DNA from: Malacoraja senta
Taxonomy: Eukaryota
Reading direction: 5' to 3'
Assembly: GCA_038087875.1 (NCBI GenBank)
Contig: CM075989.1
Span: 3,038,001 to 3,102,000, forward strand
DNA length: 64,000 nt
Part shown: positions 4,025 through 63,784 of the stretch, one piece after another
Position numbering within the stretch: position 1 is the first letter of the stretch
Layout: each line of letters starts with the position of its first letter
Notes under the pieces: generated by a model
What the model was told of the DNA's origin: nothing
Seen by the model: only the letters and a program-made list of their open reading frames with translations
Databases searched by the model: none
Position numbers and translations under genes: made by a program

Positions 4025-4113
4025 ATGGTCTGAAGAAGGGTTCCGACCCAAATCGTCAACCATTTTCTTTTCTCCAGAGATGCTGCCTGACCCGCTGAGT
4101 TACTCCAGCACTT
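4025..4113 (+). mobile_element. Penelope-derived short repeat with degraded hammerhead motif
   Basis: CTGAAGAAGGGTTCCGACCC...GTC followed by the family body TCTCCAGAGATGCTGCCTGACCCGCTGAGTTACTCCAGCA. Confidence 0.7.
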
Positions 4114-4465
4114 TCAGAATCAGAATCATAATCATACTTTATTAGCCAAGTATGTTTTGCAACATACGAGGAATTTCGTTTGCCATACACTCATACCAAT
4201 AAAAAGCAACATAACACACAAAATACATTTTAACATAAACATCCACCACAGTGACTCCTCCACATTCCTCACTGTGATGGAAGGTGAAAAAAAGTTAAAT
4301 CTCTTCCCTTCTTTGTCCTCCAGCAGTCAGGGGTCTCTAACCTTCCGTTGACGGGACGATCTTACTCCCGTAGCCGGCGGCGGGCTTCCTCGTCGGGGCC
4401 ATCAAGCTCCTACATCGGGGGGGGGGAATCTCAGCTCCCCTGCGCCGGGTGATCTACTCCGGATT
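4114..4465 (-). mobile_element. Non-coding retroposon-like repeat (hairpin family with Rex-like tail)
   Basis: Shares the CCATCACAGTG...CACTGTGGTGG stem and a tandem-repeat tail with copies at 5560, 7722, 21688, 31280 and 38270. Confidence 0.6.
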
Positions 4466-4524
4466 GTGTCTATCTTCAGTATAAACCAGCGTCCGCAATC
4501 CTTTCTACACTCCCTCCCCACTGC

Positions 4525-4700
4525 GGGTAATTTACAGAGGGCCGATTAATCCTACATACCCGCACGTCTTTGGGAGGTGGGAGGAAGCCAGGGCGCCCGG
4601 AGGAGACCCACACGGTCACAGGGAGAACATGCAAACTCCACGCAGACAGTACCTGAGGTCAGGATCGTACCCGGGTCTCTGGCGTTGTGAGGCAGCAGTG
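4525..4700 (-). mobile_element. HE1/V-SINE-type SINE fragment
   Basis: Reverse complement of the SINE body seen at 6146-6457. Confidence 0.7.
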
Positions 4701-4789
4701 ATTCAAAGCTGAGACACACAGGGTGAAAACCGGTTCTTCATGCCACATCAAGCACCCATTTATACTAATCCCACCTCCCAGCCCTTAGT

Positions 4790-5020
4790 GACAATAGACA
4801 ATAGACAATAGGTGCAGGAGTAGGCCATTTGGCCCTTTGAGCCAGCACCGCCATTCAATGTGATCATGGCTGATCATCCCCAATCAGTACCCCGTTCCTG
4901 CCTTCTCCCCATATCCCCTGACTCTGCTATTTTTAAGAGCCCTATCTAGCTCTCTCTTGAAAGCATCCAGAGAACCTGCCTCCACCGCCCTCTGAGGCAG
5001 AGAATCCCACAGAATTCCAC
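4790..5020 (-). mobile_element. CR1 LINE 3' end, (TATTGTC)n tail subfamily
   Basis: Reverse complement of the 3' UTR at 39185-39501. Confidence 0.8.
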
Positions 5021-5559
5021 AGTGTCTTGGCAACTCAAGTTTTCTTCCACATACTTGTTAATAGTGATAACACCTCTGCTGCATCACCCACTCAGGCATT
5101 CCAGCTTCAAACCACCCTCGGAGTGAAAGAGAAAATCTTGAAATATTGATTGATTAATTGAAAACACAGGCCCTTCGTCCCACTCTGCCCACCCGACCAT
5201 TGATCACCCGTTCACACTAGTTCTACGTTATCCCCCCTTCCCCTCCACTCCCTACACACACAGGATAATTTACAGAGGCCATTTAACCTACAAAACCAAC
5301 ACGTCTTTGGGATGTGGGAGGAAACCGTGCAAACTCCGCACAGATAGCAGCTGATATTGTGAAAGCAGTATAGAATTGTGAGGCTTTCTACCCTTTCCTT
5401 TCTCTCTACCGTCTCTAGATGAACCTAATCACCTCTTTAAACTCCCTTAGAGCATCTGTTACCTTGCATGTAGCTCTTGTCTCCTGGAATTGTAAAACGG
5501 GCGGTTTGTATGAAGAGCACCGATGTTGATGATACAATGACATATTTGTTTCTTCGTGA

Positions 5560-6010
5560 TTCAAGTTCAAGTTCACATTAATTGCCACATGCACCAATTA
5601 AGGCACAGTGATATTTGAGTTACCATACAGCCATACAAGTAAAAAAGAACACAATACATGATAGAAATTAACATAAACATCCATCACAGTGGAATCAGCA
5701 TTCCTCACTGGGGGATCATGACAGGAGCCTCCTCGTGGCGATCCCTGGAAGCGACGACGCGATGCACTCTCTGACGCGTCGGCCGACAATTCTGTCAACA
5801 CGTTGGACGACGACAGAGGCCAACAGCGAGCTACATCCTCTGACACACGAGCGAACAAACGGTGATGGAAGGCGATAAAGTTCAGTCAATCTTCCTCCTT
5901 TTGTTCACCCGTGGTCGGGGCCTTGGACCCTCCACAGTCGCCACTACGGCCCGATGTACAGGCCCTCTCGTCGGGATGATCAAAACTCCGACATCGGGAC
6001 GGATCAGAAC
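5560..6010 (-). mobile_element. Hairpin-family non-coding retroposon carrying a 152-bp internal insertion
   Basis: Family motif TTCCTCACTG|TGATGGAAGG is split by 5711-5862; (TTCAAG)n tail at about 5560. Confidence 0.6.
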
Positions 6011-6145
6011 ATTGGTATTTCTTTGTTGTCGTCACTATACCTGGTTATGTGTGCTTTCTAGTCAAGTCGTGCAGTACATGTGTACAATCTAGCCTTAGAC
6101 AAATACAACAGGCTTGTGTAGAGAGAAAATACCAAAGTACACAAT

Positions 6146-6457
6146 GCAGTGCATGGTGGTGCAGCGGTAGAGTTGCTGCCTTACAACGCCAGAGACCCGG
6201 GTTCGATACTGACTACGGGTGCTGTCCGTACGGAGTTTGTACCTTCTCCCCGAGAACTGCGTGGGTTTTCTCCGAGATCTTCGGGATCCTCCCAAACTCC
6301 AAAGACTTGCAGGTTTGTAGGTTAATTGGCTTGGTATCAATGTAAATTGTCCCTTGTGTGTGTAGGATTGTGTTAACGTGCGGGGATCGCTGGTCGGCGC
6401 GGACTCAGTGGGCTGAAGGGCCTGTTTACTCGCTGTACCTCTAAACCAAACTAAACT
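6146..6457 (+). mobile_element. HE1/V-SINE-type tRNA-derived SINE
   Basis: A-box TGGTGCAGCGG, B-box GGTTCGATAC, central domain GGAGTTTGTAC...TCCCAAACTCCAAAGAC, CR1-derived 3' end and (CTAAA)n tail. Confidence 0.9.
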
Positions 6458-6596
6458 AGTTCTACACCATTAAAGTACGTGTGGAGGAGTACAGAGAGGA
6501 GGGAGAGGGGGGTGGTGAATCTGTGGAATTCATTGCCACAGGCGGCTGTGGAGGCCTTTCGCTATTCGGTAAGCTTCAATGAAATCCCCCCTAAAG

Positions 6597-6668
6597 TGAC
6601 CGCAGCGGGACTCGAACCTGCAATCTTCAGATCCAAAGTCAGACGCCTTATCCATTAGGCCATAGGCC
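6597..6668 (-). pseudogene. tRNA-Arg(TCG)-derived pseudogene, anticodon now TTG
   Basis: Minus strand GGCCTATGGCCTAATGGATAAGGCGTCTGACTTTGGATCTGAAGATTGCAGGTTCGAGTCCCGCTGCGGTCA resembles vertebrate tRNA-Arg(TCG); acceptor and anticodon stems are damaged and there is no adjacent T4 terminator. Confidence 0.8.
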
Positions 6669-6807
6669 TCCTTTTACCACTGTTGACCCTTGATGTTTCC
6701 TCAGCCTTGTGTCTTGTGAACTTCTGGGCTCACTAGAAGTTTAAATCTCTCCATTGTTCTGTGCACCTCATTAACGATGCACAGGTGGGGTCTCTGCCAC
6801 ATAACTA

Positions 6808-7340: not shown

Positions 7341-7721
7341 GCAAGAGACACGGAGTGCTGGAGTAACAGGCAGCATCTCTGGGGAACAAAGATAGGTGAC
7401 ATTTCACAGAGTGCGGAAGTAACTCAGCGGGTCAGGCAGCATCTGTGGAGAACATGGAGAGATAGTGTTTTAGGTCGGAACCTTTCTTTGTACTAATTGT
7501 ATGGAGGGAGGGGGTTGGACAAAAGCTGTAAGAAAGGGACTGGTTACAGGGAGGGGTGGGGGCAGGAAAGGTGGATGAGAGGAGTGCTGCCTGACCCCGC
7601 TGAATTACTCCAGCACTTTGTGTCTTTTTTTGCAAAACAGCATCTGCAGTTCTGTGTTTCAACAAAATTGGAGTTTGTTTCCCATTTCCTATCGAAACCA
7701 GGTGGTGGATCTGTGGAATTG

Positions 7722-9033: not shown

Positions 9034-9313
9034 GGCAGCACGGTGGCGCGTTGGTAGAATTGCTGCCATAGAGGCCCGGGTTCAATTCTGACTACGGGTG
9101 CTGTCTGTACATTCTTCCCCTGACCTGCCTGGGTTTTCTCCGAGATTTCCGGTTTCCTCCCACACTCCAAAGACATCCAGGTTTGTACATTAATTGGCTT
9201 GGTGCAAATCTAAATTGTCCCCAGTGTTAATGTGCGAGGATCACTGGCTGGCACGGACTCGATGGGCCGAAGGGCCTGTTTCCGTGCTGTATCTGTAAAT
9301 TAAACTAAACTAA
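9034..9313 (+). mobile_element. HE1/V-SINE-type SINE
   Basis: GGCAGCACGGTGGCGC head, V-domain, CR1-type tail and (CTAAA)n. Confidence 0.85.
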
Positions 9314-9700: not shown

Positions 9701-10029
9701 GATCAATGATGAAGATGAGGCGGGGGCAGGATCAGGGGCCAACAATGGACAGGAGAAGCAAAGGTGGAGAAGACAGCAGCTTGAAGCTGTTCTTTTGGGA
9801 CTGGGGGAACATTGCTCTCTCTAAAGATTGTACCACATTCACTGCCCTCCACCCTGGGCTTCTTGTTGCCACCAGAACACAGGGTACATGGATTAAAACC
9901 CAGACACAAATACAAACGATGTAGGCAACAAGGGAGGTGGGGGACAACCAAACAGTGACAAACCAAAACATCTCCAAATGGAGGTCATGCGGCTGAATTG
10001 ATGGCCAATCACAAAAATAAAGTTGAAAA

Positions 10030-10640
10030 TAGACATAAAATATTGGAGTAACTCAGCGGGTCGGGCAGCATCTTTGTAGAGAAGGAATAGGTGACGTTTC
10101 GGATCGAGACCCTTTTTCAGACTGAGAGTCAGGGGAGGGAGAAACTACTGATGGAAGGACACAAAGTGAATTTAAGGTGTGAAAAGGACAGATCAAAGCA
10201 GACGATGCTCAGGAGTAGAATGGTTCACTGTTTGGCTGGGGGGAAGGTGACAACGAGGCATACAAACAGTTTGCAGTTGTGTTTATTGTCACGTGTGCCG
10301 AGGTACAGCGAAAAGCTTTTGCTGCGTGCTATCCAGTCAGCGGAAAGACAATACATGCTTACAATCGAGCCGTTTACAGTGTACAGATACATGAGAAGGG
10401 AATAACGTTAAGGTAAAGCCAGGAAAATCCGATCAAGGATAGTCCAAGGGTCACCAATGAGGTAGATAGTAGTTCAGCACTGCTCCCTGGTTGTGGTAGG
10501 TTGATTTGCAATAGAAATGCTGCAGCAAAACAGGAATATTAATCAGGAGGGCAGTGAAACTGGTCGGGGAACTAGGGTGGGGGACAGACGGAGAGAGGGG
10601 GAAAGCAAGGGTTACCCAGTCAGAGCAATCAATATTCCGA
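10030..10640 (-). mobile_element. Penelope-like 3' region with hammerhead-like motif, interrupted by a Rex-type 3' UTR (about 10275-10505)
   Basis: Minus strand is collinear with 45870-46215; hammerhead-like motif at 10093-10120. Confidence 0.6.
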
Positions 10641-11242
10641 TCAAGTCTGATTAGTGCAGACTTCTGCTAATGGAGCAATTGTGGACATCTTATTATTGGT
10701 ATGAATTAATTAATAATGAACACTTGTTATAAAGAATCAACATCTTAATGGCGGTCGGTCCCTGCATTCCAAATGACGAGGCCATGATTATTTTATTACA
10801 AACCCGACACTGCATTGAAGTGACGCAGTAAATAATATTAACAGTTTCTCAGTGCCTGTCACCAACATAATGCAGACTCTGAACTCTGTGCCGGCCCCGA
10901 TAAATCCATTTTAAATCATTGTGTTTTCATTATTGCTGCACATTAATCTATCAATACAGCGCGGATTGTCCGTTAAGATGAGCTACAGCCGGCTGCCAGC
11001 ATTCGCCTCTCGCATTCATCTCAATTACAGGAGGGGAGAAGGAAAACATCTGTAGTTGGAGTAACTTTCATCTTCAGATTCCTTCATTTCGGATCCAGGG
11101 ATGTGTAGGAAGGAACTGCAGATGCTGGTTTAAACCGAAGATTGACACAAAAAGCTGGAGTAAGTCAGTGGGACAGGCGGCAGCTTTTCGTGCCTATCTT
11201 CGGTTTAAACCAGCATCTGCAGTTCCTTCTTACACATTCAGT

Positions 11243-11270
11243 CTGAAGAAGGGTCTCGACCCGAAACGTC
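11243..11270 (+). ncRNA. Minimal type-I hammerhead ribozyme motif in a Penelope-derived repeat
   Basis: CTGAAGA-A-GGGT(CTCG)ACCC-GAAA-CGTC: CUGANGA box, stem II, GAAA box and GUC site. Confidence 0.75.
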
Positions 11271-11451
11271 ACCCATTCCTTCCCTCCAGAGATGCTGCCT
11301 GTCCCGACGAGTTATTCCAGCTTTTTGAATCTATCTTCGGATTCAGGGATTTCTCACTGCCTTTCACTCGAGCTGATCCACAATCAAGCAGACTTTAGTC
11401 CCACCACTACCCACCCCACTTGCACTGGCTTTTCATAACTTTGGACAACTT

Positions 11452-11850: not shown

Positions 11851-12443
11851 TCTCTTCATCATGTGTAGGAAGGAACTGCAGATGCTGGTTTAAACTAAAG
11901 ATAGACACAAAATGCTGGAGTAACTCAGCAGGACAGGCAGCAGCATCTCTGGAGAGAATGAATGGGTGACGATTCGGGTCGAGGCCCTTCTCCATTGAGC
12001 CAGCTGTGCCTCAATGGTTCAAATTCTGCAGAGGAATCATTCAACCATATTCCCCTCAAGTGTTCATTGAAAAGGATGTAGATATAGAACAGCACAGAAG
12101 ATGGACACAAAATGCTGAAGTAACTCAGCGGGTCAGGCAGCATCTCTGGAGAGAAGGAATAGGTGATGTTTCAGGTCAAGACCCTTCTTCAGACTGCGAG
12201 TCAGCGGAGAGGGAAACTAAAGATATGAAAAGGTATATTGAGGACATAGGTCCAAGCTGAAGGGGAAAAGATTTAATAGGAATCCGAGGGGTAACCTTTT
12301 CACACATAGGGTTGTGGGTGTATGGAACAAGCTGCCAGATGACGTAGATGAGGTAGTTGAGGCTGAGACTATCCCATCGTTTAAGAAGCTGTTAGATAGG
12401 TACATGGATAGGGATATGGACCAAGCGCAGGCAAGTGAGATTA

Positions 12444-15690: not shown

Positions 15691-16974
15691 TAGTGTAGCT
15701 GGGACATTGTTGGCTGGTGTGGGCAAATTGGACCCAAGGGCCTGTTTCTACACTGTATCACTCTATGACTCTATACATAGAACAAATGAATGAATGATAT
15801 CCAAACGAACAAATCAAAGCCAGCAACGATGATCAAGTAAAGGTGGAGCCCACAATGGTCCATTGTTGGCTGTGGAGGAGGTGATAAAGAGTGGATACAA
15901 ACAGTAAAACTAAGCGGGACGACGGAAGGGTCTTGACCCAAAACGTCACCTATTCCTTTTCTCCAGAGATGCAGCTTGACCCGCTAAGTTACTCCAGCTG
16001 TTTGTGCAGATTACCAGATAATCTGTTTCGAAGATGTTGAATGTGGGATAATTATTTCATTGGACACCAGGGAACAATACTTTCTTTCAATAGTCAAGGG
16101 GGCCTGAATTAATGGTCTCTGCCTGGATTAGGGGGTATCTCCCTGGAATAGGGGCCATCCCCCTGGATTACAGGGTGTTAGCTACAAGGAAAGGTTGGAC
16201 AGACTTGAATTGTTTTCTCTGGAACATCGGAGGTTGAGGGGAGGACCTGATGGAAGTATATGAAATAATGAGGGGCATAGATAGAGTAGACAGTCAGAAC
16301 CTTTTCCCAGGATAGAAACATCAAATACTAGAAGGTATAGCTTTAAGGTGAGATGGTCAACATTTAAATGGGATGTGTAGGGCAGGTTTGGAAGATGTTG
16401 TTTGTAAGATAATTATTGCCAGGACACCAGGAGTGCCCTTTCTTTCAATGATGCAGGGTGGCACAATGGGGCTTTCTGTCTGGATTAGGAGGTATCTGCC
16501 TGGATTAGAGCGTATTAGGTACTGCTGGCTTGGAATTGTCCTTTTGCATACCCTTCATTCATTTGTTTCTTTGTACCCTTTCACACCTCTCGTTTCCCTC
16601 ACCCCTGACTCTCAGTGTGAAGGAAGGTCTCGACCCAAAACGTCACCTATTCCTTCACTCCAGAGATGCTGCCTGTCCCGCTGGGTTACTCCAGCTTTTT
16701 GTGTCTATCTTCGGTGTAAACCAGCATCTGCAGTTCCATCCTCCACATTGTATCTGCTGATTTATCTCATAGCTGTTCACTGTAAACAAATTAACCACTT
16801 TTTTCCTCCACCAAAACATATTTTATTCACTGTAGATTGCTTTAGAACTTGCTAAAGTGCTGTATCAATTCAATCTTTATTTCTGTCACACAATGACTTG
16901 AATTAACCCTTATATCACAGTAAGAAAGCTACTAACTTCGGAACTAGGAATGTATTGTTAAAATATGAACAGCA

Positions 16975-17284: not shown

Positions 17285-17297
17285 AAATTATCTCATG

Positions 17298-17518
17298 GAC
17301 ACAAAAAGCTGGAGCAACTCAGCGGGACGGGCAGCATCTCTGGAGAGAAGGAATGGGTGACGTTTCGGTTCGAGACCCTTCTTCTGTCTGAATAAGTGTC
17401 TCGACATAAAACATCACCCATTCCGTCTCGTCAGAGATGCTGCCTGTCCCACTGAGTTACTCCAGCTTGTTGTGTCTATCTTCGGTTTAAACCAGCATCT
17501 ACAGTTCCTTCCTACACT
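17298..17518. mobile_element. Inverted pair of Penelope-derived repeats
   Basis: A minus copy is followed directly by a plus copy, joined at the hammerhead ends; a second such pair lies at 17715-17885. Confidence 0.7.
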
Positions 17519-18406
17519 ATAACTTCATGTCATAGCTGCTTGCTGTTCACTGTAAACATGTTAGCCACTTCTTTTCCTGCAACAAAACATGTTTTATTCA
17601 CTGTAAATTGCTTTAGAACATCCTAAAGTGCTATATAAATTCAATATTCTTATTTCTGGCACACATTAACCCTTGCATCACAGTAACAAAGCTACTAACT
17701 TTGGACACATCATTCTGGAGTAACTCAGTGGGCCAGACAGCATCTCTGGAGAGAAAGAATAGGTGACTTTTTGGATCGAGACCGTGCTTCTGTCTAAAAA
17801 TGTGTCTCGACCCGAAACATCACCCAGTCCTTCTCTCCGGTGATGCTGCCTGTCCCGCTGAGTTACTCCAGCTTTTTGTGTCTATTTTCGTTTCATCCTG
17901 ATGGGCTCCACATCGAGTTATTGGCAGGCGTTTGATGCAGTGCGGTCTCTGACTGACCTGTCAATTGGATCCAGGAGTATAACAGAACATCTCAATCAGC
18001 CTGCAGACAAATGGAGTGCGGCTCCTGGAATCAAGTACCTTTCAGAGGCTTTCTACTGATACACTTCTTTTATTAAGAAAAACAAGCAAGGTGCAAGCAG
18101 CGAATGGAAGGATTTACTGCACAGACTGAGAAGCATCCATCAGTGCTGGCTCCTCAAATACTTATCTCATTCTATGCCAAATTATGATATAGTTTTAGCC
18201 CTGATAGTTACTTGTGGCAAAGCAATCCGTCTTCTGATAATTCTTCTGTGTAAAATCATTCCTTCTAAATGCTCTCATCATTCTTGCCGTGATAATCCTG
18301 CATCCATCTGCTCATTGCTGATTCACCAACCAAAGGAAACCATCTTTCACTATTTACTCTCCCAAGACTTTTATCGTATTTTGCAAGTCTCCATCTATCC
18401 ACCTTA

Positions 18407-23475: not shown

Positions 23476-23604
23476 GTTAAAGAACGAACTGCAGATGCTG
23501 GAAAATCGAAGGTACACAAAAATGCTGGAGAATCTCAGCGGGTGCAGCAGCATCTATGGAGCGAAGGAAATAGGCAACATTTCGGGCCGAAACCCTTCTT
23601 CAGA
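23476..23604 (-). mobile_element. ~130-bp hammerhead-bearing Penelope-derived unit with 13-bp TSD
   Basis: CTAAGACTTCAGT at 23463-23475 and 23605-23617; the insert splits Gypsy gag. Confidence 0.85.
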
Positions 23605-23827
23605 CTAAGACTTCAGTCCATTCCTCAAAATTACACCCAGAATCTAAAAGGCCTGTCTCACGAGTCTGCGGTCATTGGCGGTGATACAGGAAGTATCTAC
23701 CGCTCGTGGACCGCCAGAGACCGCGGGTTCGGTCAAACGCACACCGCCGGGGCCGTGCGGCGTTGGTCCCAACACCGCACGGTGCTCACAAAAAGTCAGC
23801 AATGTCTAAAAATAATTTCTTACCGCA

Positions 23828-33372: not shown

Positions 33373-33704
33373 GGGTGGGTCAGGCAGCATCTCTGTAGAA
33401 AAGGAATGGGTGACGTTTCGGGTCGGAACCCTTTTTCAGCCTATCCAGCATTTTGTGCCTATCTTCAGTATAAACCAGCATATGCAGTTCCTTCCTACAT
33501 ATTGTGCTGAGGTCTTAATAGAAATAATATTCAGTAGTCCAGAAAATCTGACAATTAGGCACCAAAGCCCTGAGCACATGGGATTATCAGAGATTTACTG
33601 TGCACAGAATTTTATTTCATTTTTCTTCTAATATAAAATTGGCAAGAGAGTTATTAAGAGGAGAGTGTCAGTTTGAAGAAGAGTCCCAATGCAAAACATT
33701 CTGG

Positions 33705-34089: not shown

Positions 34090-34675
34090 GAGACACAAGG
34101 AACTGCAGATACGAGTTTCAAAAAAGTCAGCGGGTCAGGCAGCATCTGTAGAGAGTAAGGAGGAGTGACCTTTCGCATCAGGACTCTTCAGACTGATAGT
34201 AGTTGAGGGGGGGGGGGAGAAAGCTGGAATAGAGGTGGGGGTGGAACAAAGCGTGGCGAGTGATAACTGGATAGAGGTACAGGGTTTTGAACGGCAGATG
34301 GGTAGACATAGGCCGGAGATGAAAATGAGATAAAAGGGTGCCAGATAAGGAGAGAAAATGTGAAACATAAGCCAGAGGGAGGGATGTAGTTGTAAGGGGA
34401 CAGGGGAAGGGGAAAGGGAGCCAGGATAGTGGGAGAAATTGGTGTGTACCCAGATAGAGCTCAGGAAAGAAAGGGTGAGGAAAATGGGGGGGGGGCTACC
34501 TAAAATTGGAGACCAATGTTCGTACTGTTGGGTTGTAAGCTACCCAAGTGGAATATGAGGTGCTGTTCCTCCAGTCTGTCTGTCTGTGGTCCCATTCTGG
34601 CAGTGGAGGAGCCCCAGGACAGAAAGGTCCATATGTGAATGGGAGGAGGAGTTAGCAACCGGGAGATTGGAGATG
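34090..34675 (-). mobile_element. Penelope-like element 3' fragment: GIY-YIG C-terminus plus 3' repeat
   Basis: Minus translation LPVA..NSSSHSHMDLSVLGLLHC...RLEEQHLIFHLGSLQP.STNI, then a pyrimidine-rich UTR and a degraded CTGAAGA...GAAAGGTC motif at about 34167-34191. Confidence 0.75.
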
Positions 34676-35541
34676 CTTGTTGGCGAGGTACCTAACCAAA
34701 AGTTCTTGCCCGAATGTACTGTACCTCACCTGAGTGGGTGATAATTTTGCCGAAAAGAATGCCAGAGGCTCCCACCTGCGTTGACTTGCTGCTCCACGAC
34801 GGCTCCCACGCCGTTAACGGAGGCATCAGTGGTGAGTGAAAATAAGGCATTGGGCCTCGTTTAATAAAATCTCCTCATTACTACTCGTGTGCAGATAAGG
34901 CCAATTATTCCGTCTGACCTCGGAGTTGTTCATCAGCTCTCGTCTCTCGACCCTCACGTCAGGCTGCTCGCTACAAGGCAGCGGGAACAAGCTGTACCTA
35001 AAAACCACGTGAGCATGAAGTCGCCACGGATACAGCGGACCTTGTCAGACCCAGTGCAGATGTAATAACCTGTTTGACCCAAGAAATGTGTAGGAAGGAA
35101 CTGCAGATGCTGGTTTACACCGAAGATAGACACAAAATACTGGAGTAACTCAGCGGGTCGGGCAGCATCTCTGGAGAAAGAGAATAGGTGATATTTCAGG
35201 TTGGAACACAGTTGAGTTTGAGTTGAGTTTAGTTTATTGTCACGTGTACCGAGGTACAGTGAAGAGCAATGAAAAGAAGGTTTCCGACTCAAAAAGTCAC
35301 CTATTCTTTTTCTCCAGAGATGCTGCCTGACCCGCTGAGTGTCTCTCTTCAGAGACAAGTTTGCTTTGCTACTTATGGATTAAGTGGTCACTTTATCAAT
35401 GACAAGTTCAGGTTCTGTTGGATGCAGATGAAACTTAGGGGACTTGCCCTAGAATCCTAGTTGACCTCCTTGTTTTTTGAAGGGCATTTTCTGGTCGGTC
35501 CTCGCATCGTGAAGGACTTTGTACAATGTGTTAAGAAATAT

Positions 35542-36865: not shown

Positions 36866-38599
36866 GACTAGACTCCCTACTACTGGAAACATCCTCTCCA
36901 CAGCCACTCTATCTAGCCCTTTCATTATTTGATTTCTCGCAGATTTCAAAGCTGAGATGGCCAACGTTTTGTAATGCAAGAATGTGAATACACTTGGGAG
37001 GCAAGAACTCAGATCCCTGCCACTCCTTTGCTCGGCACAGATATCAGTGAAACAAGCAGACAGCACCAACGTTGTGTGCAGTCTGGAACATGTTGCACGA
37101 GCTGGACTTTAATCAATCATCACAAACTCAGCATATGTTTTCCAGTGTCATTCGATTTATCCTCTGTGGAACCAAGCCAGGTAAATTAAGTTAAAATAGC
37201 AAAAAGCCATTATCTAATGAAATGGCAGAGCAAGCCTGAGAAACTAGACCTATTCATAAGTTTCAACTCCGAGGAAAAACTGCCTCTTACCTTCAATGAT
37301 TTTACATTAAGGCTACAAAAATACAGGCAGCAACTTAGCAAGCGAGTGGCAGTGTAACACACCGGATAACAAGGACTTCACGTCCAATGTAAGACATATC
37401 TTTCGCTTCAATGAACCCATGTATGGTTTAATTAGTTGGTTTCAATACGGAGCTGGCCTTGACTCACCAGGTTATTATTTGAATACATTAGCAAGCCCAA
37501 TGAATTTCTATAAGAGTCATATCTACAATTTTCTCTTATCAGCTGGGAATTTCCAAGAAAGCTCAACGATGATTTGAACCAATTTTAGCAAGAGCTGCAT
37601 GGGTGATTATGAAGGACTGAATCCTTGAGTTCACTATAACATTGTGCTTATACAGAGCCCTGTGAGGGAGGCAAAGTCGCTGCATTGATGTGCGGGTAAT
37701 GGAGCTCGACACACGATTCCAGCCAATTTAAAAGTCTGACACTTGAATGGAACATGGAGGAAATCCATTACCCAGTAACACAGGTTCCGAAAAAAAGTTC
37801 CTCATTTTGTAAGATATTAAATTACTGAGAAAATTTCCATTTTAAGTGTGTTTATGTACCATACGCACCAGATAAGAACCGGGACAATAAAATTCCTACT
37901 TGCCGCAGCACATTAGACACAACAACGATGTGGTATAAAGGATCAGTTATTCTACACAAACCAGACCATGATATTACAAAACCAAGCCAAGTAGAACAAC
38001 TATAGCGGTGCGATGTGTGTAGGGTTCAGTGCTGAGGTAACGTTGGGCAGGGTGGTTTAAGAACCTGATGGATGAAGGAAAATGGCTGTTCCTGAGCCTG
38101 CAGGTAATGGTTCTCAAGCTCCTGTAGATAGAAACAAAATGCTGGAGTAACTCAACGGGTCAGGCTCAGACAACATCTCTGGAGAAAAAGAATAGGTGAT
38201 GATTTGGGTCGAGACCCTTCTTCAGACTTCTACAATCTGAAGAAGGGTCTCGATTCGAAAAGTCACCTGAAACATCGGCCCCCGTGGCGGCAACTGCGGA
38301 GGCCTCAATAGGCCCGACTATGGGTGGACAATGGGATGGGGACTGGACTTTGTGCCTTCCCTCACAGTGGGAACCATTGTGGGGGGATGTTTTTATGTTT
38401 TATGTTAAATTTCTTTACAATGTTATGTTGTATTCTTATTAATGTGCTGCAATGGCAACTTGAATTTCACTTCACCAATTGGTGTATGTGACTACAAATG
38501 AACCTTATGAACCTATGCCTTCTCTCAGAGATGCTGTATGTCCCGCTGAGTTACTCCAGCATGTTGTGTCTATGTTCGGTTTCAACCAGCATCCGCAGT

Positions 38600-38970
38600 T
38601 CCTTCCGTCAAATTTCTATACCTTCGTCTTGATGGCAGCAGTGAGAAGAGAGTGTGGCCAGGGTGGAGTGGGTCTTCGGTGATGTTAGATGCCTTCTTGA
38701 GGCAGCTCTTCCTGCAGATCCTTTCAGTGGTGGGGAGGTCAGTACCCGTGATGGACCTGGCAATGTCCACTCCCGTTCTGCAGGTTCATGAGTGCTTGAA
38801 TTTCCAAACCAGGCAGTGATGCAACCTGTCAGTATGCTCACCACTGCCCAGCTGTTGACGTTCAATGGAGTATCCGGTTACATGACAAACCTCCTCCAAC
38901 CTCTGAGGAAACAGAGCTGAGCTTTCTTTATGATTGTATCAATGTACTGGGCCCAGGATAGATCATCAGA
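38600..38970 (-). mobile_element. Old Rex1-like LINE fragment
   Basis: SILTGCITAWFGN and HPGHTLFSLLPSRRRYR in ORFs 38608-38865 and 38582-38770. Confidence 0.75.
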
Positions 38971-38974
38971 GTTT

Positions 38975-39795: not shown

Positions 39796-39856
39796 TATAT
39801 CTCTCTACATCAGCATTGATGTCTGTCTCTCGTTTCACTTTACCCTGACCCTCAGT

Positions 39857-39884
39857 CTGACGAAGGGTCTCGACCCGAAACGTC
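39857..39884 (+). ncRNA. Minimal hammerhead ribozyme motif
   Basis: CTGACGA-A-GGGT(CTCG)ACCC-GAAA-CGTC. Confidence 0.75.
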
Positions 39885-40409
39885 GCCTGTTACTTTTCTC
39901 CAAAGATGCTGCCTGACCTGAGTTACTCCAGCACTTTGCGTCTGTCTATAGCAGATTGACTGCATGCCTCTTTAAGAGCATCAGTTCCAATACATTCATT
40001 ATTGGGATAAAACCAACAACAGATGCTCATTAAATGATAAATTTGTTTCAAGACAAAAGGTGTTTTCGTGTTCACCAGACGTATCTCAATTTGTATGGAA
40101 CTGCAGATTAATATTTGGAAAGAATATGTTCTATTGACTGTTCACAAAAGCACATCGCCTCTCTGAACATATCCTGACTGAACATTTTTAACTACTTCAA
40201 TGTCAGGTTAATTCTGCAAACAGTTTTTAGCATTAGTCAATGCTTAAAAATCAAAATCATAGAATGATAACGATACACGAGGAAGCCATTCAACCCATCA
40301 ATTCCTTGCCAGCTCTGCGGGGAACAATCCAGGCAATTCCAGCCCCCTGCTGTTTCCCTGTCAACCCGGAAATATATTTTTATTTTAGTTCCAATCCTAA
40401 TTCCTACCC

Positions 40410-40475
40410 AAATTTGAGGAATAGCACCTCATATTTCGCTTGGGCAGCTTACAACCCAGCAGTATGAATATTAAC
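40410..40475 (+). mobile_element. Penelope GIY-YIG C-terminal remnant
   Basis: Translates LEE*HLIFRLGSLQPSSMNIN. The continuation NIDLSNFK* plus 3' repeat resumes at about 45870, after the CR1+DIRS insertion. Confidence 0.65.
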
Positions 40476-41053
40476 ATAGAAACATAGAAACATAGAAAAT
40501 AGGTGCAGGAGGAGGCCATTCGGCCCTTCGAGTCAGAACTGCCATTTATTGTGATCATGGTTCATCGTCATAAATCGATAACCCGTGCCTGCCTTCTCCC
40601 CATATCCCTTGATTCCACTAGCCCCTAGAGCTCTATCTAACTCTCTCTTAAATCCATCCAGTGACTTGGCCTCCACTGCCCTCTGTGGCAGGGAATTCCA
40701 CAAATTCACAACTCTGGGTGAATAAGTTTTTTCTCACCTCAGTCTTAAATGGCCTCCCCTTTATTCTAAGACTGTGGCCCCTGGTTCTGGACTCGCCCAA
40801 CATTGTGAACATTTTTCCTGCATCTTGCTTGTCCAGTCCTTTTATAATTTTACTTCGGAGTCACGTGAGTGACTACGTGAAGATCCCGCTCAGTGCGCAG
40901 GCGCGGCATTACGCCAGCAGTGCAACAGCGGTGGCAGCTGGAGTTAGGCTCTCCGGCTGCAGTTTAAAAAACGGACCGTTAGGTAAGTATACTGAAGTAG
41001 TGGAAGATCTAACGGAGAAGGAGAGTCGTTGTGTGGTGTGTTCTTTACAAAAA

Positions 41054-45869: not shown

Positions 45870-46215
45870 AATATTGACTTGTCTAACTTCAAGTAACCCT
45901 TGCTTTCCCCCTCTCTCTCCCTGTCCCTCCCCATCCTCGTTCTCCGACTAGTTCTACACTCCTCCTGATTAAATATTACTGATTTTATGCCGCATTGTCA
46001 CCCCCCCCTCAGCTAACATTGAACCTTTCTACAAATCCTTTTAAACTTCTGCTTTGATCTGTCATTTTCACACCTCCCCCTTCCATATCTCTAAGTTCCC
46101 TTTCCCTTGACTCTCAGTCTGAAGAAAGGTCTCAACCTGAAATGTCACCCATTTCTTCTCTCCAGAGATGCTGCCTGTCCCGCTGAGTTACTCCAGCACA
46201 TAGTGTCTATTTTCG
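45870..46215 (+). mobile_element. Penelope-like ORF end, 3' UTR and hammerhead-like repeat
   Basis: NIDLSNFK*, then a pyrimidine-rich UTR, then CTGAAGA-A-AGGT(CTCA)ACCT-GAAATGTC at about 46119. Confidence 0.7.
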
Positions 46216-46607
46216 GCCCTGGTTGCAGAGAACTCTAATCACTACCGTGTCCACATGAAAAATCTTATCCTGAAGAGTAGAGAAAGTGGGAAAGAAGACA
46301 TATGGTATGCTTGCCTTCATTGGTTGGGGCATTGAAATATAGAAACATAGAAATAGGTGCAGAAGTAGGCCATTCGGCCCTTCGAGCCAGCACCGCCATT
46401 CAATATGATCATGACTGATCACCCAAAATCAGTTCCCCGTTCCTGCTTTTTCCCCATATCCCTTGATTCCTTTGGCCCTAAGAGCTAAATCTAATTCTCT
46501 CTTGAAAACATGCAGTGAATTGGCCTCCACTGCCATCTGTGGCAGAGAATTCCACAGATTCACAACTCTCTGGGTGAAAAAGTTATTGAATATTAGAGTG
46601 AGGAAGT

Positions 46608-52717: not shown

Positions 52718-53367
52718 TACATATTCAGCACAGACATTGTGGGCCGAAGGGCCTGTTGCTGTTCAGTACTCTTCCGTTTTATTCACTGGTAAGAGAGGAC
52801 TGATGAAGTTAAATCCTGAAGAAGTTGACAATTGACGTGCCAGGGCGGCACGGTGGCGCAGCTGTAGAGCTACGACCTAAAACGCCACCCATTCCTTCTC
52901 TCCAGAGATGTTGCCAGTCCCGCTGAGTTACTCCAGCATTTTGTGTCTATCTAGATCAGATAATACTGTACACTGCACAATCAAATGAAAAACAAGTGCA
53001 ATGGATAGACTAAAGGGGAAGGTATAGACTTCTCTGCAATGCAGCACATCAGTTCCACAGACAATGTCTAATGTGTGCATTGGCCGGGTTGAGACAAGAC
53101 TTTGATTATATCAACTGCTCTCCTGAGGCAGTGTGGTGTGGATGGAGTCAATGGTGGGGAGTGTGATCGTGTGATGGACTGGGTTGCAACTTCATGCAGG
53201 AGAACTGTGACCTTCTTGACTCGCTCAGTGAGGTGACGGGTTCGACATATTTGATTGTACGGGGAGATTTTTTTTTTCTATTTCATTAAACGTCTATCTC
53301 TGAACCTTTGCAGGATAGGTGAGAAACAAAAGGAGGCAGAGAATGTCAGTTTGCAAGAATGTTGTAG

Positions 53368-53702: not shown

Positions 53703-53836
53703 TGTGTTATAGAGGGAACTGCAAATGCTGGAAAATCGAAGGTACACAAAAATGCTGGAGAAACTCAGCGGGTGCAGCAGCATCTATGGAGCGAAGGAGA
53801 TAGGCAACGTTTCGGGCCGAAACCCTTCTTCAGACA
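53703..53836 (-). mobile_element. ~134-bp hammerhead-bearing Penelope-derived unit with 14-bp TSD
   Basis: AAGTAGATGTATCA at 53689-53702 and 53837-53850; core CTGAAGA-A-GGGT(TTCG)GCCC-GAAA-CGTT on the minus strand at 53806-53833. Confidence 0.88.
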
Positions 53837-55806: not shown

Positions 55807-56381
55807 ATAAATAAGGCAGCACCAGCTCACTGTAAGATGCCATATGGTTGTTACACAATGCTGTTACAGAGTCACACATATTCTCCTTTCTTTCATCCTT
55901 TCTTAAAGCATTCATGTTTTCACTCATCCCCACATCTCTTGAGATTTACTACCATTGCCTGAGAAATGTTGATATTGTGGCTGTTCAGTCTCTCTGGTAG
56001 ATGTGAATACTCAAGCAGTTCAATCTGTGACAGTGTGAGTTCACAGTTTAGCAGCTGACTCTGAGCACACTTTGTGGCTTTGGATTTCTGAAAAGAACTG
56101 CTTCTCTCCCTTTCACATTTGGATGTTATTTGTGGAGATATCCTCGTGTTTTCACCGCACCTGTCAGATCTGTACCTTAGAAGAAAATAATGCAGTTTTC
56201 TTTGGATGACATTTTTGAATTCCGGAGAGGAAGGACAGATTCTTTGATGATAATCCCCTCCCAACTTGTATTTAAATGGTGTAAGAAGGAACTGCAGATG
56301 CTGCTTTACACTGAAGATTGACATAAAACGCTGGAGTAACTCAACGAGTCAGGCAGCATCTCTGGCGAAGAAGGAATAGGT

Positions 56382-56409
56382 GACGTTTCGGGTCGAGACC
56401 CTTCTTCAG
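56382..56409 (-). ncRNA. Minimal hammerhead ribozyme motif
   Basis: Minus strand CTGAAGA-A-GGGT(CTCG)ACCC-GAAA-CGTC within the repeat at 56280-56465. Confidence 0.75.
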
Positions 56410-56734
56410 ATCCATGTTCTCCAGAGAAGCTGCCTGACCCGCTGAATTACCTCAGCACTTTGTGTCTTTTTGTTAATCTCTCTGTAAATTGTTTGTATCC
56501 TCCATGCAGTTTGATATCCCACCTATGTTTCTGCCACTCTTGAATCTGGCCTCATCCCTCCAGCTTATCATTACACATTGTAAACAACTCGTGGTCCTAG
56601 CACTGAGCCCTGCCTGCCGCCGTCAATGTGTCACCTTGGTCAAATGGAGACCCTTCTGTCAATGTATATCATGTTGTTACTTGTGGGTGGAGCACCAAGG
56701 CAAATGCCTTGTATTTGAATACTTGGCCAATAAT

Positions 56735-58135: not shown

Positions 58136-58738
58136 GCCGGGTCTCCATCGCCCCTCATGCTGGCATGTGGATGAATAACTTCATTCAGTGCGCCTGGCTG
58201 TCTGGTCTAGAAATCCTTCTTGGTCAATACTGAGCAATGAGCAACCCACCTGTTTATAAACTACACTGCACATAAAGCTCTCAGGTAAGTAGGAGTGTGC
58301 TTGTTAAAAGTCAATTATCTCCATGCTGTACTCCTGCAGGCAGGCATTTTCTGTTTGCAAAGACTATTTTCTTGTTGCCAGATGGCAGTGATTGTAATGC
58401 CGTGTTCTGTACACCCATAAGCAGTGACTCTTTTGCAGGAGGTGATGTGTCTTTTTGTTACATTATGTGTGAAGTCGTGAGAGGCTAATCGTTCAGCTCC
58501 CTCTCTCTGCCACCTGTGTCCCTGTAACTCGAGCTGACATGTGGCCTCATGAGAAACGCAGGCAAATTGACAACAGATCGACAATAAGCACAGGCCGGAC
58601 AGCTTTCATTGCAGCCATTTAACATCAAAGGTCGATTGAAGAAAGACACAAAAAGCTGGAGTATCTCAGCGGGTCAGACAGCATCTCTGGAGAAAAGGAA
58701 TAGGTGATGTTTCGGGTTGAGACCCTCCTTTAGACTTA

Positions 58739-59876: not shown

Positions 59877-60078
59877 CTAGACCAAGTGGGACCCGTTGGG
59901 TCCCAAACTCACGTGAGGGCTGGTCCCCCAATGCAATATTCCACCTCTCCACCAATTCCAATATTGGTGGCCAGTGGGGGGGGGGGTGGTTTCTGGAGCG
60001 CTAGGGAGCGTGTTGTGGGCCGAAGGGACTGGTTTCCAGAGGGCTAGTATGGACATTGTGGGCCAAACAGATTTTTGA

Positions 60079-60293
60079 ACTCACAGTTCAGTCACTCACG
60101 GCTGGTGGACTCACAGTTCAGTCACTCACGGCTGGTGGACTCACAGTTCAGTCACTCACGGCTGGTGGACTCACAGTTCAGTCACTCACGGCTGGTGGAA
60201 TCACAGTTCAGTCACTCACGGCTGGTGGAATCACAGTTCAGTCACTCACGGCTGTTGGAGCCACAGTTCACTCACTCACAGCTGGTGGACTCA
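60079..60293. repeat. 30-bp minisatellite, about 7 copies
   Basis: ACTCACAGTTCAGTCACTCACGGCTGGTGG; a related array lies at 62245-62375. Confidence 0.95.
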
Positions 60294-60297
60294 TCCA

Positions 60298-60992
60298 TCA
60301 CACACACCTTCCATCACACACACACACACACACTCCATCTCACACACACACACTCCATCTCTCACACACTCACACACACACTCACACTCCCTCTCAGACA
60401 CACATACCCTCCATCTCACACACACACCCCCATCTCACACACTCACACACACACACTCCATCTCACACACACACCCTCCATCTCACACACACATACACAT
60501 ACACTCACACAAACACACACCCCCCCATCTCTCACACACTCACACACACACTCTCCATCTCACACACACACACAACTCCACTCCATCCTCACACACACAC
60601 ACACACTTCATCACACACACACACACACCCATCTTCCACACACACACACACACTCCTCACACTCCCTCACACCCACACACACACCCACACACACACACAC
60701 TCCACACACCCTCACCACACACACACACACACCCTCCATCTCCACCCACTCACACACCCACTCACACACCCTCCATCTCACACACACACACCCTCCATCT
60801 CACACACACACACCCCCCACCATCTCACACACACACCACACCCTCCATCTCACACACACACACCCTCCATCCTCACACACACACACCCCCCATCTCACCA
60901 CACACACACACACCATCCCATCTCACACACACACACACCCTCCATCTCACACACACCCTCCACCACCACACACACACACACACATCATCCAT

Positions 60993-61026
<34 letters not shown>

Positions 61027-61851
61027 CACACGCACACACACCCTCCCTCTCACACACACACACCCTCCATCTCACACACACACACCCATCTCTCTCACAC
61101 ACACACTCTCCATCTCACACACACACACACACACACACCCTCCATCTCACACACACACACACACACACCCTCCATCTCTCTCACACTCACACACACACTC
61201 TCCATCTCACCCACACACACACTCCATCTCACACACACACACACTCACACTCCATCTCACACACACACACTCCATTCACACACCCACACACACACACTCA
61301 CACACACTCCATCTCACACACACACACTCCATCTCACACACACACATACACACCCTCCATCTCTCTCTCACACACACACACCCTCCATCTCACACACACA
61401 ATACATCTCTCATATACATACACACCCACACGCACACACACACTCCATCTCACACACACACACACTCCATCTCACACACACACATACACACCCTCCATCT
61501 CTCTCTCACACACACACACCCTCCATCTCACACACACAATACATCTCTCATATACGTACACACCCACACGCACACACACACTCCATCTCACACACACACA
61601 CACTCCATCTCACACACACACATACACACCCTCCATCTCTCTCTCACACACACACACCCTCCATCTCACACACACAATACATCTCTCATATACATACACA
61701 CCCACACGCACACACACACACTCCATCTCACACACACACACACCCTTCATCTCACACACACACACTCCATCTCACACACACACACCCTCCATCTCACACA
61801 CACACACCCTCCATCACACACACACTCCATCACACACACACACACCCTCCA

Positions 61852-61921
<70 letters not shown>

Positions 61922-62120
61922 ACACGCACACGCACACGCACACACGCACACGCACACACGCACACGCACACGCACGCACATGCACGCACGCACGCACCCA
62001 CGCACGCACACACACACACACACACCATCTCACACCCACCCACCATCTCTCACAAACTCACACATAAGCACACCCTCCATCTCACACACACAAACACCCT
62101 CCATCTCACACACACACATC
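60298..62120. repeat. (CA)n/CCATCT compound microsatellite
   Basis: CA runs punctuated by CTCCATCT; a ~120-bp higher-order unit is repeated around 61310-61730. Confidence 0.95.
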
Positions 62121-63784
62121 CGGGACATATGACAGTAAAACTCTCTTGATTATACTCAGGTCCGATTTCTGGACTGAGAGCGACCTCTGGACTGAGCTCA
62201 TCCTCTGGACTAAGCGCGACCTCCGGACTCAGCCACGGCTTGTAGCCTCACAGTTCACTTACTAAGGGCTCGTAGACTCACAGTTCAGTCACTCACGGCT
62301 TGTAGACTCACAGTTCACTCAGCAGGGCTTGTAGACTCACAGTTCTGGACACAACTCACTCACGGCTTCCAGGCTGACTGACTCACGCCCGGCCTCCGGG
62401 GCTTTATTCTCCTTGCCCCCGGAAGGGTCGTCACCTTCATGGTGACTGACAGGCGAGAAGACCAATCTGCTGATCTCACGATTTTTTAAACCTTCGTAAC
62501 AAGCAGGGCCCAGTACGATGGGCAAATATCCACCCCATTATCCACCCCTCAGCATGAGTTTAGTTTATTGTCACGTGTATCGAGGTGAAGTGAAAAGCTT
62601 TTATTTCATGCTATCCAGTCAGTGGAAAGACAATATATGATTACAATAAGGCCAAAATGTCACCCATTCCTTCTCTCCAGAGATGCTGACTGTCCCGCTG
62701 AGTTACTCCAGCATTTTGTGTCTACCTTCGATTTAAACCATCACCTGCAGTTCCTTCCCACACATTACAATCAAACCATTAGATATAGATACAGGATAAG
62801 GGAATAACGTTTAGTGCAAGGTAAAGCCAGCAAAGTCTAGTCAAGGATATTCTGAGGGACATCAAAGAGGTAGATAGTAGTTCAGCACTGCTCTCTGGTT
62901 GGTAGGATGATTCAGTTGACTGATAACAGCTGGAAAGAAACTGTCCCTGAATCTGGAGATGTGCATTTTCACACTTCTGTAACTTTAGCCTGATGGGAGA
63001 GAGGAGAAGAAGGAATGTGCTGGTGGCCTTGCCGAGGCAGCGTGATGTATAGATGTAGTCAATAGAATGGAGATAGACACAAAATGCTGGCGTAACTCAA
63101 CGGGACAATAGAAGGGTCTCGACCTGAATCGTCACCCATTCCTTCTCTCCGGAGATCTCTGGAGAGAAGGAATGGGTGACGCTGAGTTACTCCAGCTTTT
63201 GTCCCGCTGAGTTACTCCAGCTTTTTGTGTCTATATTCGGGACAATAGAAGGGTCGGATTGTGTGTTGGTCTGGGCTGCGCCTACAATTCGCTGCAATTC
63301 TCTTCACTCTGGCTGATAGAAATCCAGAGAATGTGACAATTTCCAGACCAAAGTGCTTTTAAAAATTGTCTTGACGTGATACAAATTAATTTCCATTTGT
63401 ATCTGCAGATTATCCAAAGCATCCTGCTTAAATAAACTGTTGTCACAGTCAGGTCCCTGACTGCGCAATAATTATTTATTCACTTTAATCCTATCTTTTT
63501 TGAGAATGTTTAACCAGAGCTTTAATGAATTGTGAGCTGTATTGGGTTTAAGTTTTTTAAAAAATTGCATTTTCCCATTGAGCAGATTTAAGCAGAAATG
63601 ATTATAAATCACTTCTGATGCAGGCTCGGGAGTCTAAAGAGAGATGATCTCACTAATCCAATCACTTTCACCTTTCCCCAGGCGACCTTCTACAATGCAC
63701 AAACAACGCACACACTGAATATCAGCCAGCTCATTCTTGTATTCACATCCACATGCTCCTCTCCCAAAGGTGTCAATTCCAGAT

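What the first reader, a model, noticed from the sequence alone, without database searches (positions are those of the whole stretch)
4025..63250. Dense family of short repeats carrying a minimal hammerhead-ribozyme core
Seen: roughly 20-30 copies of a ~100-130 bp repeat, many beginning GTCTGAAGAAGGGTCTCGACCCGAAACGTC. Best-preserved cores are at 11243(+), 39857(+), 53806(-) and 56382(-). They read CUGANGA, one extra A, a 4-bp stem II with a tetraloop, GAAA, then CGU(C/U). Stem II variants keep pairing (GGGT/ACCC, GGGT/GCCC with a UUCG loop, AGGT/ACCT at about 46119). Known: Penelope-like elements carry minimal type-I hammerheads whose helix III is a short palindrome (here ACGT/AACGTT) and which cleave best as dimers. 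Inference: this genome carries a very high density of potential self-cleaving motifs, about one repeat per 2-3 kb here, which could cut intronic or read-through transcripts.
Basis: partly seen in the sequence, partly recalled or inferred. Interest (0 to 1): 0.72.

Follow-up and report, generated by a model that had tools for sequence, protein, structure and literature searches.

The report
Penelope retrotransposon ends carrying minimal hammerheads
The repeats are real and carry a hammerhead-ribozyme motif, but they are likely the decaying 3' end pieces of a Penelope-like jumping gene in what is likely a shark or ray, a kind of element described in 2014, and only 4 of the 24 copies that span the motif keep it whole, so cutting of host RNA is predicted to be negligible.

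Summary
Observation confirmed. There are 38 pieces at 24 loci, one per 2.7 kb, and the motif matches a minimal type I hammerhead far above chance (8 hits against 0.04). The repeat is likely the 3' pseudo-LTR end of a Penelope-like element (PLE). One copy lies ~300 nt behind a broken GIY-YIG C-terminus matching shark PLE proteins (E~1e-10). Nine of 24 loci are head-to-head inversions, 3' ends fall in two groups ~33 nt apart (the PLE 'tail'), and two copies have 13-14 nt target duplications. The functional inference is weak. Only 8 of 24 motif-spanning copies keep the core, and 4 also keep the ACGU palindrome. Helix I is at most 2 bp. The core decays as fast as the body (11.3% vs 10.3%, p=0.64). 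Covariation is not significant, the hammerhead fold is not the predicted one, and no host gene was recognised. Published PLE hammerheads cleave weakly as dimers, or only with protein. One unexplained detail: 15 of 38 pieces start at the motif's first bases and 1 at the cleavage site, so uncleaved RNA was likely copied. The scan noted the same kind before in other shark genomes. No cleavage was tested.

The parts
4024..4114 (+). repeat copy starting at the hammerhead; core broken
4448..4510 (+). 3' body and tail piece, perhaps the split end of the 4024 copy
7345..7656 (.). composite locus: two minus pieces and one plus piece; core broken
10022..10640 (-). copy with upstream 3' UTR (interrupted by another repeat); G8 mutated
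11102..11343 (.). inverted and tandem composite with a probable flanking duplication (15 nt, 1 mismatch, by eye); holds an intact motif
11241..11272 (+). intact minimal hammerhead: helix I 2 bp, CUGAAGA, extra A, stem II 4 bp, GAAA, CG, UC; predicted cleavage after 11270
11862..11996 (-). copy with tail; core broken
12093..12247 (-). copy with ~55 nt of upstream UTR; core intact, helix III palindrome broken
15925..16006 (+). 5'-truncated copy
16561..16747 (+). copy with upstream UTR, body and tail; core broken
17295..17517 (.). head-to-head inverted pair joined at the hammerhead start; both cores broken
17702..17891 (.). second head-to-head pair of the same build; both cores broken
23476..23605 (-). 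subfamily B copy (UUCG loop) from the hammerhead start to the tail end, 13-nt target duplication; core intact, palindrome has a C-to-T change
33376..33499 (.). inverted pair; G8 mutated
34097..34495 (-). ~300-nt pyrimidine-rich 3' UTR followed by a decayed hammerhead copy (3-nt gap), directly behind the GIY-YIG remnant
34496..34680 (-). frameshifted C-terminal remnant of a Penelope-like GIY-YIG endonuclease, with the ORF stop
35087..35352 (.). inverted pair with a spacer; cores truncated or broken
38098..38268 (.). head-to-head pair; the plus piece keeps the core but has a wobbled stem II and no palindrome
38511..38610 (+). the one copy that starts at the predicted cleavage site
39805..39951 (+). 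copy with upstream UTR and an intact motif (core at 39857)
40410..40478 (+). second GIY-YIG C-terminal remnant; no hammerhead copy follows it
45870..46216 (+). likely ORF end (stop at 45894-45896, by resemblance only), ~220-nt UTR and a copy with core intact, A-U outer stem II pair and palindrome changed
52866..52953 (+). 5'-truncated copy lacking the core
53703..53835 (-). subfamily B copy, intact motif (core at 53833, GUU site), 14-nt target duplication
56279..56471 (.). inverted pair; the minus copy has an intact core and palindrome (core at 56409), helix I only 1 bp
58635..58738 (-). copy starting at the hammerhead; core broken
62652..62764 (+). 5'-truncated copy with tail
63068..63243 (.). 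four-piece inverted and tandem composite; core missing or broken

Best explanation
The repeats are likely 5'-truncated retrocopies of the 3' end (pseudo-LTR) of a Penelope-like retrotransposon, likely of the Neptune type, whose master elements carry a minimal type I hammerhead that is predicted to cleave only weakly, as a dimer or with the element's protein, and the scattered copies decay as fast in the ribozyme core as elsewhere. Shown: the repeat, the motif, its place ~300 nt behind a GIY-YIG C-terminus, head-to-head inversions, two 3' end points ~33 nt apart, target duplications at two copies, and equal decay of core and body. Inferred: the element's RT/endonuclease nicks DNA and starts cDNA at one of two internal sites 100-135 nt downstream of the motif. 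It usually stops or switches strand at or before the motif's 5' edge, leaving short solo or inverted copies. The RNA copied was mostly uncleaved. In an intact tandem element two motifs would pair through ACGU to form helix III and cut after GUC or GUU; solo copies lack a partner and would be inert.
For: Motif far above chance: 8 vs 0.04 per window, about 1e-4 per 135-bp unit. The frame upstream of the 34193- copy found 4 whale-shark proteins among 8 candidates. These align back to 34515-34665 at E 3e-10 to 8e-9 for three of the four. Their longer relatives (37 of 421 candidates) are RT + GIY-YIG proteins of up to ~900 aa, with the best hits from sharks and rays, and show a C-x4-C-x2-C linker, which Craig 2021 gives for Neptune and Nematis. 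9 of 24 loci hold both strands, head to head. 3' ends: 17 at profile 148-163, 15 at 182-194, 1 between, 5 earlier. Target duplications are 13 and 14 nt; 3 of 2000 random pairs reach 10 nt. The core differs from consensus at 24/213 non-CpG cells against 186/1804 in the body, p=0.64. Subfamily B's 4 changes inside the motif are all tolerated (loop, two wobbles, GUC to GUU; 0 of 11 core positions), against 14 changes in the next 74 positions. The extra nucleotide after A9, the G10.1-C11.1 pair and the palindromic 15.2-16.2 are the features Cervera 2014 lists. 135,791 contigs of one run lie on a 391-nt stretch with one copy and its UTR, so the family is genome-wide.
Against: No full-length element and no PLE RT lie in the window, and no genome is held. 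The ORF link rests on one copy, itself decayed, plus a 9-codon resemblance at 45870-45896. No tree was built, so Neptune is inferred from a motif in relatives. Helix I of 2 bp is shorter than the 4-5 bp of schistosome minimal motifs (it matches D. virilis). Folding gives helix I pairs a probability of 0.06 or less in all 12 constructs, and the dimer form scores -12.7 to -13.3 kcal/mol against -21 to -30 for other folds, so even the master motif may not cleave. The subfamily comparison is too small to prove selection (0 of 11 at a 19% rate has about a 10% chance). The zebra-shark read-through match is weak (E 0.075).
Confidence: 0.88

Rival explanations
1. One reading: the many copies are live self-cleaving motifs that cut intronic or read-through host RNA.
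For: 4 copies keep core, stem II and palindrome. Two of them (53833-, 56409-) lie 2.6 kb apart on one strand and could pair in one transcript. Contigs of runs guessed to be RNA hold the repeat (DNA not excluded).
Against: 16 of 24 motif-spanning copies are broken. There is no excess conservation and the hammerhead fold is disfavoured. Inverted loci would fold into long hairpins (inference). No host gene was recognised. Published monomers show no cleavage and dimers low cleavage; the anole motif cleaves only with protein; 8 of 9 Xenopus retrozyme dimers gave no cleavage.
Confidence: 0.06
2. The short copies come from independent non-autonomous masters of about 132 nt (SINE-like or retrozyme-like) that begin exactly at helix I and are moved in trans by the PLE protein, rather than being random truncations of the full element.
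For: 15 of 38 pieces start within profile 55-64 (17 counted, less 2 that carry unmodelled UTR), 16 start across the next 76 positions, and 1 at the cleavage site. Both subfamily B copies run from the motif start to the tail end with different target duplications. Contig joints return to 46115-46117. Upstream lies a pyrimidine tract ending in CAG, which reads as a splice acceptor or an initiator (consensus recalled).
Against: An RT stop or strand switch at the motif's edge gives the same pattern. Several starts are not independent (two inverted pairs share one build). No GT..AG joint to that site was among the 15 joints listed of 172. Copies with longer UTR exist (7 of 38). No long tandem arrays as in retrozymes. 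This rival is compatible with the PLE origin.
Confidence: 0.3
3. The likeness to a hammerhead is chance in an ordinary SINE-like repeat.
For: Rfam hammerhead models give no hit. No significant covariation. All copies descend from few masters, so they are not independent.
Against: Chance is about 1e-4 per unit even with a relaxed descriptor. The motif sits where PLE hammerheads sit, behind a GIY-YIG ORF, and has the three extra features listed by Cervera 2014.
Confidence: 0.02

Closest known systems
Minimal hammerheads (min-HHR) in the pseudo-LTRs of metazoan Penelope-like elements (Cervera & de la Pena 2014, PMC4209133; dimer cleavage also in Lunse et al., PMC5785218, title seen only)
   Same: Type I core CUGANGA/GAAA/UH, one extra nucleotide after A9, G10.1-C11.1, no helix III of its own, palindromic 15.2-16.2, mostly solo copies from truncated elements, opposite-strand pairs close together.
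   Different: Stem II is only 4 bp (7-8 in schistosome motifs, 6 in D. virilis) and helix I only 2 bp (as in D. virilis). Repeat density is high: one locus per 2.7 kb in this window. Cartilaginous fishes are not named in the parts I read; one supplementary file could not be searched.
Neptune-clade PLEs (Craig et al. 2021, PMC8557442, passages)
   Same: C-terminal GIY-YIG, Zn-finger-like linker in the named relatives, 5' truncation, inverted 5' copy, 30-40 bp tail, hammerhead near the 3' end.
   Different: Only the last ~60 codons are in the window, so linker and RT were seen in relatives only, and no tree was built.
Poseidon PAc of Anolis (Frangieh et al. 2024, PMC11167929)
   Same: Two internal RT start sites give the optional tail, and uncleaved RNA is the main template. 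Both fit the end points seen here.
   Different: Different clade. There the ORF starts inside stem II; no such ORF start was sought here.
Non-LTR retrozymes of animals (Cervera & de la Pena 2020, PMC7229834; Li et al. bioRxiv 10.64898/2026.07.22.740005)
   Same: Non-autonomous, type I hammerhead, related to PLE pseudo-LTRs; reported in one cartilaginous fish.
   Different: Retrozymes are head-to-tail arrays with a complete motif in each unit, often canonical with loop-loop contacts. Here the copies are solo or inverted and the motif is minimal.

Membership tests
PLE minimal hammerhead | Conserved core CUGANGA, GAAA, UH around a paired stem II | tested here: met
   8 of 24 motif-spanning copies; majority form in alignment A1
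PLE minimal hammerhead | Extra nucleotide after A9 and G10.1-C11.1 pair | tested here: met
   extra A in 8 of 8; commonest pair G-C in 17 of 24
PLE minimal hammerhead | Palindromic 15.2-16.2 allowing a dimer helix III | tested here: met
   ACGU in 4 of 8 core-intact copies; the rest are mostly CpG changes
PLE minimal hammerhead | Helix I closing the motif | tested here: inconclusive
   2 bp in 6 of 8 and 1 bp in 2 of 8; pair probability 0.06 or less; 2 bp is reported for D. virilis
PLE minimal hammerhead | Covariation in stems | tested here: inconclusive
   3 both-side cells, reached by 49 of 500 shuffles; score reached by 7 of 500
PLE minimal hammerhead | Self-cleavage as a dimer or with protein | not testable with these tools
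   needs an in vitro assay; contigs cannot show RNA ends
Penelope-like element | ORF with C-terminal GIY-YIG upstream of the pseudo-LTR | tested here: met
   remnant 34496-34680 lies ~300 nt upstream of the 34193- copy
Penelope-like element | Telomerase-like RT in the same ORF | tested here: inconclusive
   absent from the window; RT present in relatives of the matching proteins
Penelope-like element | 5' truncation with inverted or tandem copies | tested here: met
   9 of 24 loci inverted head to head
Penelope-like element | Optional 30-40 bp tail | tested here: met
   two groups of 3' ends, 17 and 15 of 38, about 33 nt apart
Neptune clade | Zn-finger-like C-x(2-5)-C-x2-C linker and RT phylogeny | tested here: inconclusive
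   motif visible in P0005-P0007, P0009, P0017 and P0025; not in the window; no tree built
Non-LTR retrozyme | Head-to-tail array of two or more units, each with a complete motif | tested here: not met
   no locus among 24 has two intact same-strand motifs; the nearest are 2.6 kb apart
Canonical type I hammerhead (Rfam) | Match to Rfam hammerhead models; 6-bp helix I with loop-loop contact | tested here: not met
   no hammerhead hit; helix I of 2 bp

The most novel reading that the evidence does not exclude
Sharks and rays carry a very abundant ~132-nt non-autonomous Penelope-derived SINE whose RNA begins precisely at helix I of the hammerhead. Its start is set by an initiator or splice acceptor in the pseudo-LTR, which would explain why helix I is only 2 bp. 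The ribozyme would then act as a protein-gated switch that removes the first ~31 nt, and only uncleaved RNA is copied.
Probability: 0.2. Interest if true: 0.45.

Novelty: new member of a known kind. Interest (0 to 1): 0.2.

Why it matters
As it stands it adds little. It is another large family of Penelope hammerheads, here in a likely cartilaginous fish, and it corrects the idea that repeat density equals density of active ribozymes. The family is useful material for an open question, namely what PLE hammerheads do. With many thousands of copies, the positions of 5' ends can show whether cleaved or uncleaved RNA is copied; in this window 1 of 38 pieces starts at the cleavage site and 15 at the motif's start. 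A motif with 4-bp stem II and 2-bp helix I is also near the lower size limit for a hammerhead and is cheap to assay.

Tried and rejected
No whole genome is held, so no genome-wide alignment was possible. Pattern scans of metagenome and viral contigs found 0 matches, and a PLE protein scan of metagenome contigs gave 198 pattern hits with none confirmed. A search for translated read-throughs of the motif gave 4 candidates, none at E<=10. A phmmer job on cluster representatives was still queued at my last try and gave no result. Sequencing runs: no RNA holder listed. Laid runs were contigs only, so RNA ends, strand and level could not be seen. I did not use the depth gradient to place 5' ends, because the reference copy is decayed inside the motif. 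Intron idea (donor at the ORF stop, acceptor at the motif): no such joint among the 15 listed of 172, so it is neither shown nor excluded; by eye it would not lengthen helix I. A longer helix I: none within 6 nt and none favoured in folds; z-scores -0.03 to -1.79 in 6 folds. Rfam miRNA hits are microsatellite artefacts. Searches for a printed description of this shark or ray family found none, but Repbase, Dfam, Lunse et al. (not held), one Cervera supplement and the bioRxiv supplements could not be seen and may hold it.


Full report
1. Observation. The repeat is there. BLASTN with window 11241-11345 gave 34 pieces. A profile built from 12 copies gave 38 pieces, and none on the reversed window. 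These group into 24 loci and 3,701 bp, one locus per 2.7 kb. The pattern CTGANGA-N13-GAAA occurs 10 times against 0.16 expected. A relaxed minimal-hammerhead descriptor of my own gives 8 hits, all inside this repeat, against a mean of 0.04 in 100 shuffles, or about 1e-4 per 135-bp unit. The per-unit figure is the right one, since the copies share ancestors. Rfam's hammerhead models do not hit it.

2. State of the motif. 24 pieces span the motif. 8 keep the 11 core positions and four stem II pairs. Against the profile consensus (36 of 38 pieces, subfamily B left out, 3 edge columns dropped) the core differs in 33/237 cells and the body in 197/1888 (p=0.12). Without CpG sites the figures are 24/213 and 186/1804 (p=0.64). 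CpG sites differ at 47/228 and others at 326/2907. This is the picture of neutral decay. Stem II is 92.7% paired, but only 3 cells change on both sides (49 of 500 shuffles reach that), and the covariation score is reached by 7 of 500, which the tool warns can arise from kinship alone. At the 46119 copy cited as covarying, laid contigs read mostly G and C. At master level, subfamily B (2 copies) differs from the main consensus at 4 positions inside the motif, all tolerated and none in the core, and at 14 of the next 74. That suggests selection on the masters but is not significant.

3. What the repeat is. About 300 nt upstream of the 34193- copy, on the same strand, lies a frameshifted coding remnant. 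One of its frames found 4 proteins among 8 candidates, all from whale shark. Three of them align back at E 3e-10 to 8e-9 and the fourth at 4e-7. A search with one of them returned 37 proteins of 421 candidates. The best were from sharks and rays, and several were ~900-aa RT + GIY-YIG proteins, the PLE architecture. They show a C-x4-C-x2-C linker, given for Neptune and Nematis by Craig 2021; I built no tree. A second remnant at 40410-40478 has no motif behind it. The main subfamily's UTR runs ~220 nt up to a 9-codon stretch that resembles the same ORF end (resemblance only). The insertion anatomy fits PLEs as described by Craig 2021. 9 of 24 loci are head-to-head inversions. 3' ends fall into two groups (17 and 15 of 38, 1 between, 5 earlier) about 33 nt apart, the optional tail (I chose the seed lengths, so I checked the ends by eye). 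Two subfamily B copies have 13- and 14-nt target duplications, where 3 of 2000 random pairs reach 10 nt. 135,791 contigs of one run, and 4,305 to 16,479 of runs from three other organisms, lie on a 391-nt stretch holding one copy and its UTR. The host is therefore likely a cartilaginous fish and the family is genome-wide. All Pfam hits among 218 ORFs of 75 aa or more were transposon domains; short exons would be missed.

4. How it likely works. Shown elsewhere: in the anole PLE, reverse transcription starts at two internal sites that define the tail, the hammerhead cleaves only with the element's protein, cleavage is not needed for insertion, and no RNA-seq reads end at the site (Frangieh 2024, parts 1-2 of 4 read). 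Schistosome minimal motifs do not cleave as monomers and cleave weakly as dimers (Cervera 2014, parts 1-2 of 4). Inferred here: cDNA starts 100 or 135 nt downstream of the motif and mostly ends or inverts near the motif's 5' edge. 17 of 38 pieces start at profile 55-64 (15 after removing two that carry an unmodelled UTR), 5 further upstream, 16 over the next 76 positions, and 1 at the cleavage site. The templates were therefore mostly uncleaved. Folding of the four best copies gives helix I a pair probability of 0.06 or less in 12 of 12 constructs. Stem II ranges from 0 to 1.0, because its 5' strand can pair instead with the bases after the cleavage site and the core can pair with downstream sequence. 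The dimer form (-12.7 to -13.3 kcal/mol) loses to other folds (-21 to -30). Energy models miss the tertiary core, so this lowers the chance of activity but does not exclude it. Solo copies lack a partner; the only intact same-strand pair nearby is 53833/56409, 2.6 kb apart.

5. Comparison. It works like, and by the tested features belongs to, the PLE minimal hammerheads of Cervera and de la Pena 2014, who report about 4,000 in coelacanth and 9,000 in Xenopus, mostly solo. It is not a retrozyme array and not a canonical Rfam hammerhead. Stem II (4 bp) and helix I (2 bp) are at the short end. Papers seen: Cervera 2014 and Frangieh 2024 (parts 1-2 of 4); Li et al. bioRxiv 2026 (parts 1 and 3 of 5 and passages); Craig 2021, PMC6765202, Schostak 2008, PMC6155905, PMC7229834 and PMC6466107 (passages); Lunse et al. 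(title in reference lists only). Four searches found no paper on this shark or ray family, but repeat libraries and some supplements could not be seen. Three earlier notes of this scan report the same kind in other shark genomes. They are unchecked notes and are not counted as evidence; my reading was set down before seeing them.

6. Verdict. A real feature and a new member of a known kind. Interest 0.2. The one open detail is the sharp pile-up of 5' ends at helix I, next to a pyrimidine tract plus CAG, which could mean short non-autonomous masters that start there (probability about 0.2, interest 0.45 if true).

Noticed in passing
window 5711-5796 (+): Candidate HDV-like ribozyme. Weak Rfam hits below gathering (CPEB3 23 bits, HDV-F-prausnitzii 21 bits), yet P1 pairs 7 of 7 with a G-U at the cleavage end and P2 7 of 7. 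P3, the P1.1 bases, a P4 hairpin and a C in J4/2 are present by eye. Single copy in the window; it may be a better candidate for real cleavage than the hammerheads.
   Followed up: partly
window 40996-45420 (+), with related pieces near 28366-30324: DIRS-type element: RT and tyrosine recombinase frames, with repeats shared between 45339-45650 and 30022-30324.
   Followed up: no
window 19523-23553 (-) and 48245-51582 (-): Two broken Gypsy-like LTR retroelements; the 23605- hammerhead copy sits at the upstream edge of the first one's gag frame.
   Followed up: no
window 12769-15495 (+): 908-aa LINE ORF2 (endonuclease + RT), CR1-like by recall, nearly whole; its 3' end fragments are another abundant repeat.
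   Followed up: no
window 6597-6668 (-): tRNA-like sequence above Rfam gathering (44.9 bits) that ARAGORN does not call; likely a decayed tRNA copy.
   Followed up: no
window ~54000-55810: Long CA-rich microsatellite array that flips strand near 55250 and so forms a large inverted repeat; it causes the miRNA-family artefacts.
   Followed up: no
window 60046-60323 and 62213-62370: 30-bp minisatellite in two places.
   Followed up: no
protein P0006 (zebra shark), last 15 residues: A PLE frame read through its 3' UTR ends in residues that match a translation of the hammerhead (6 of 7 identical, E 0.075), hinting at the same motif about 360 nt behind that ORF.
   Followed up: partly
window 46090-46118 (+) and 34190-34225 (-): Both UTR types end in a pyrimidine tract plus CAG just before the motif. 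In D. virilis Penelope an intron ends at helix I. No spliced joint was among those listed.
   Followed up: partly
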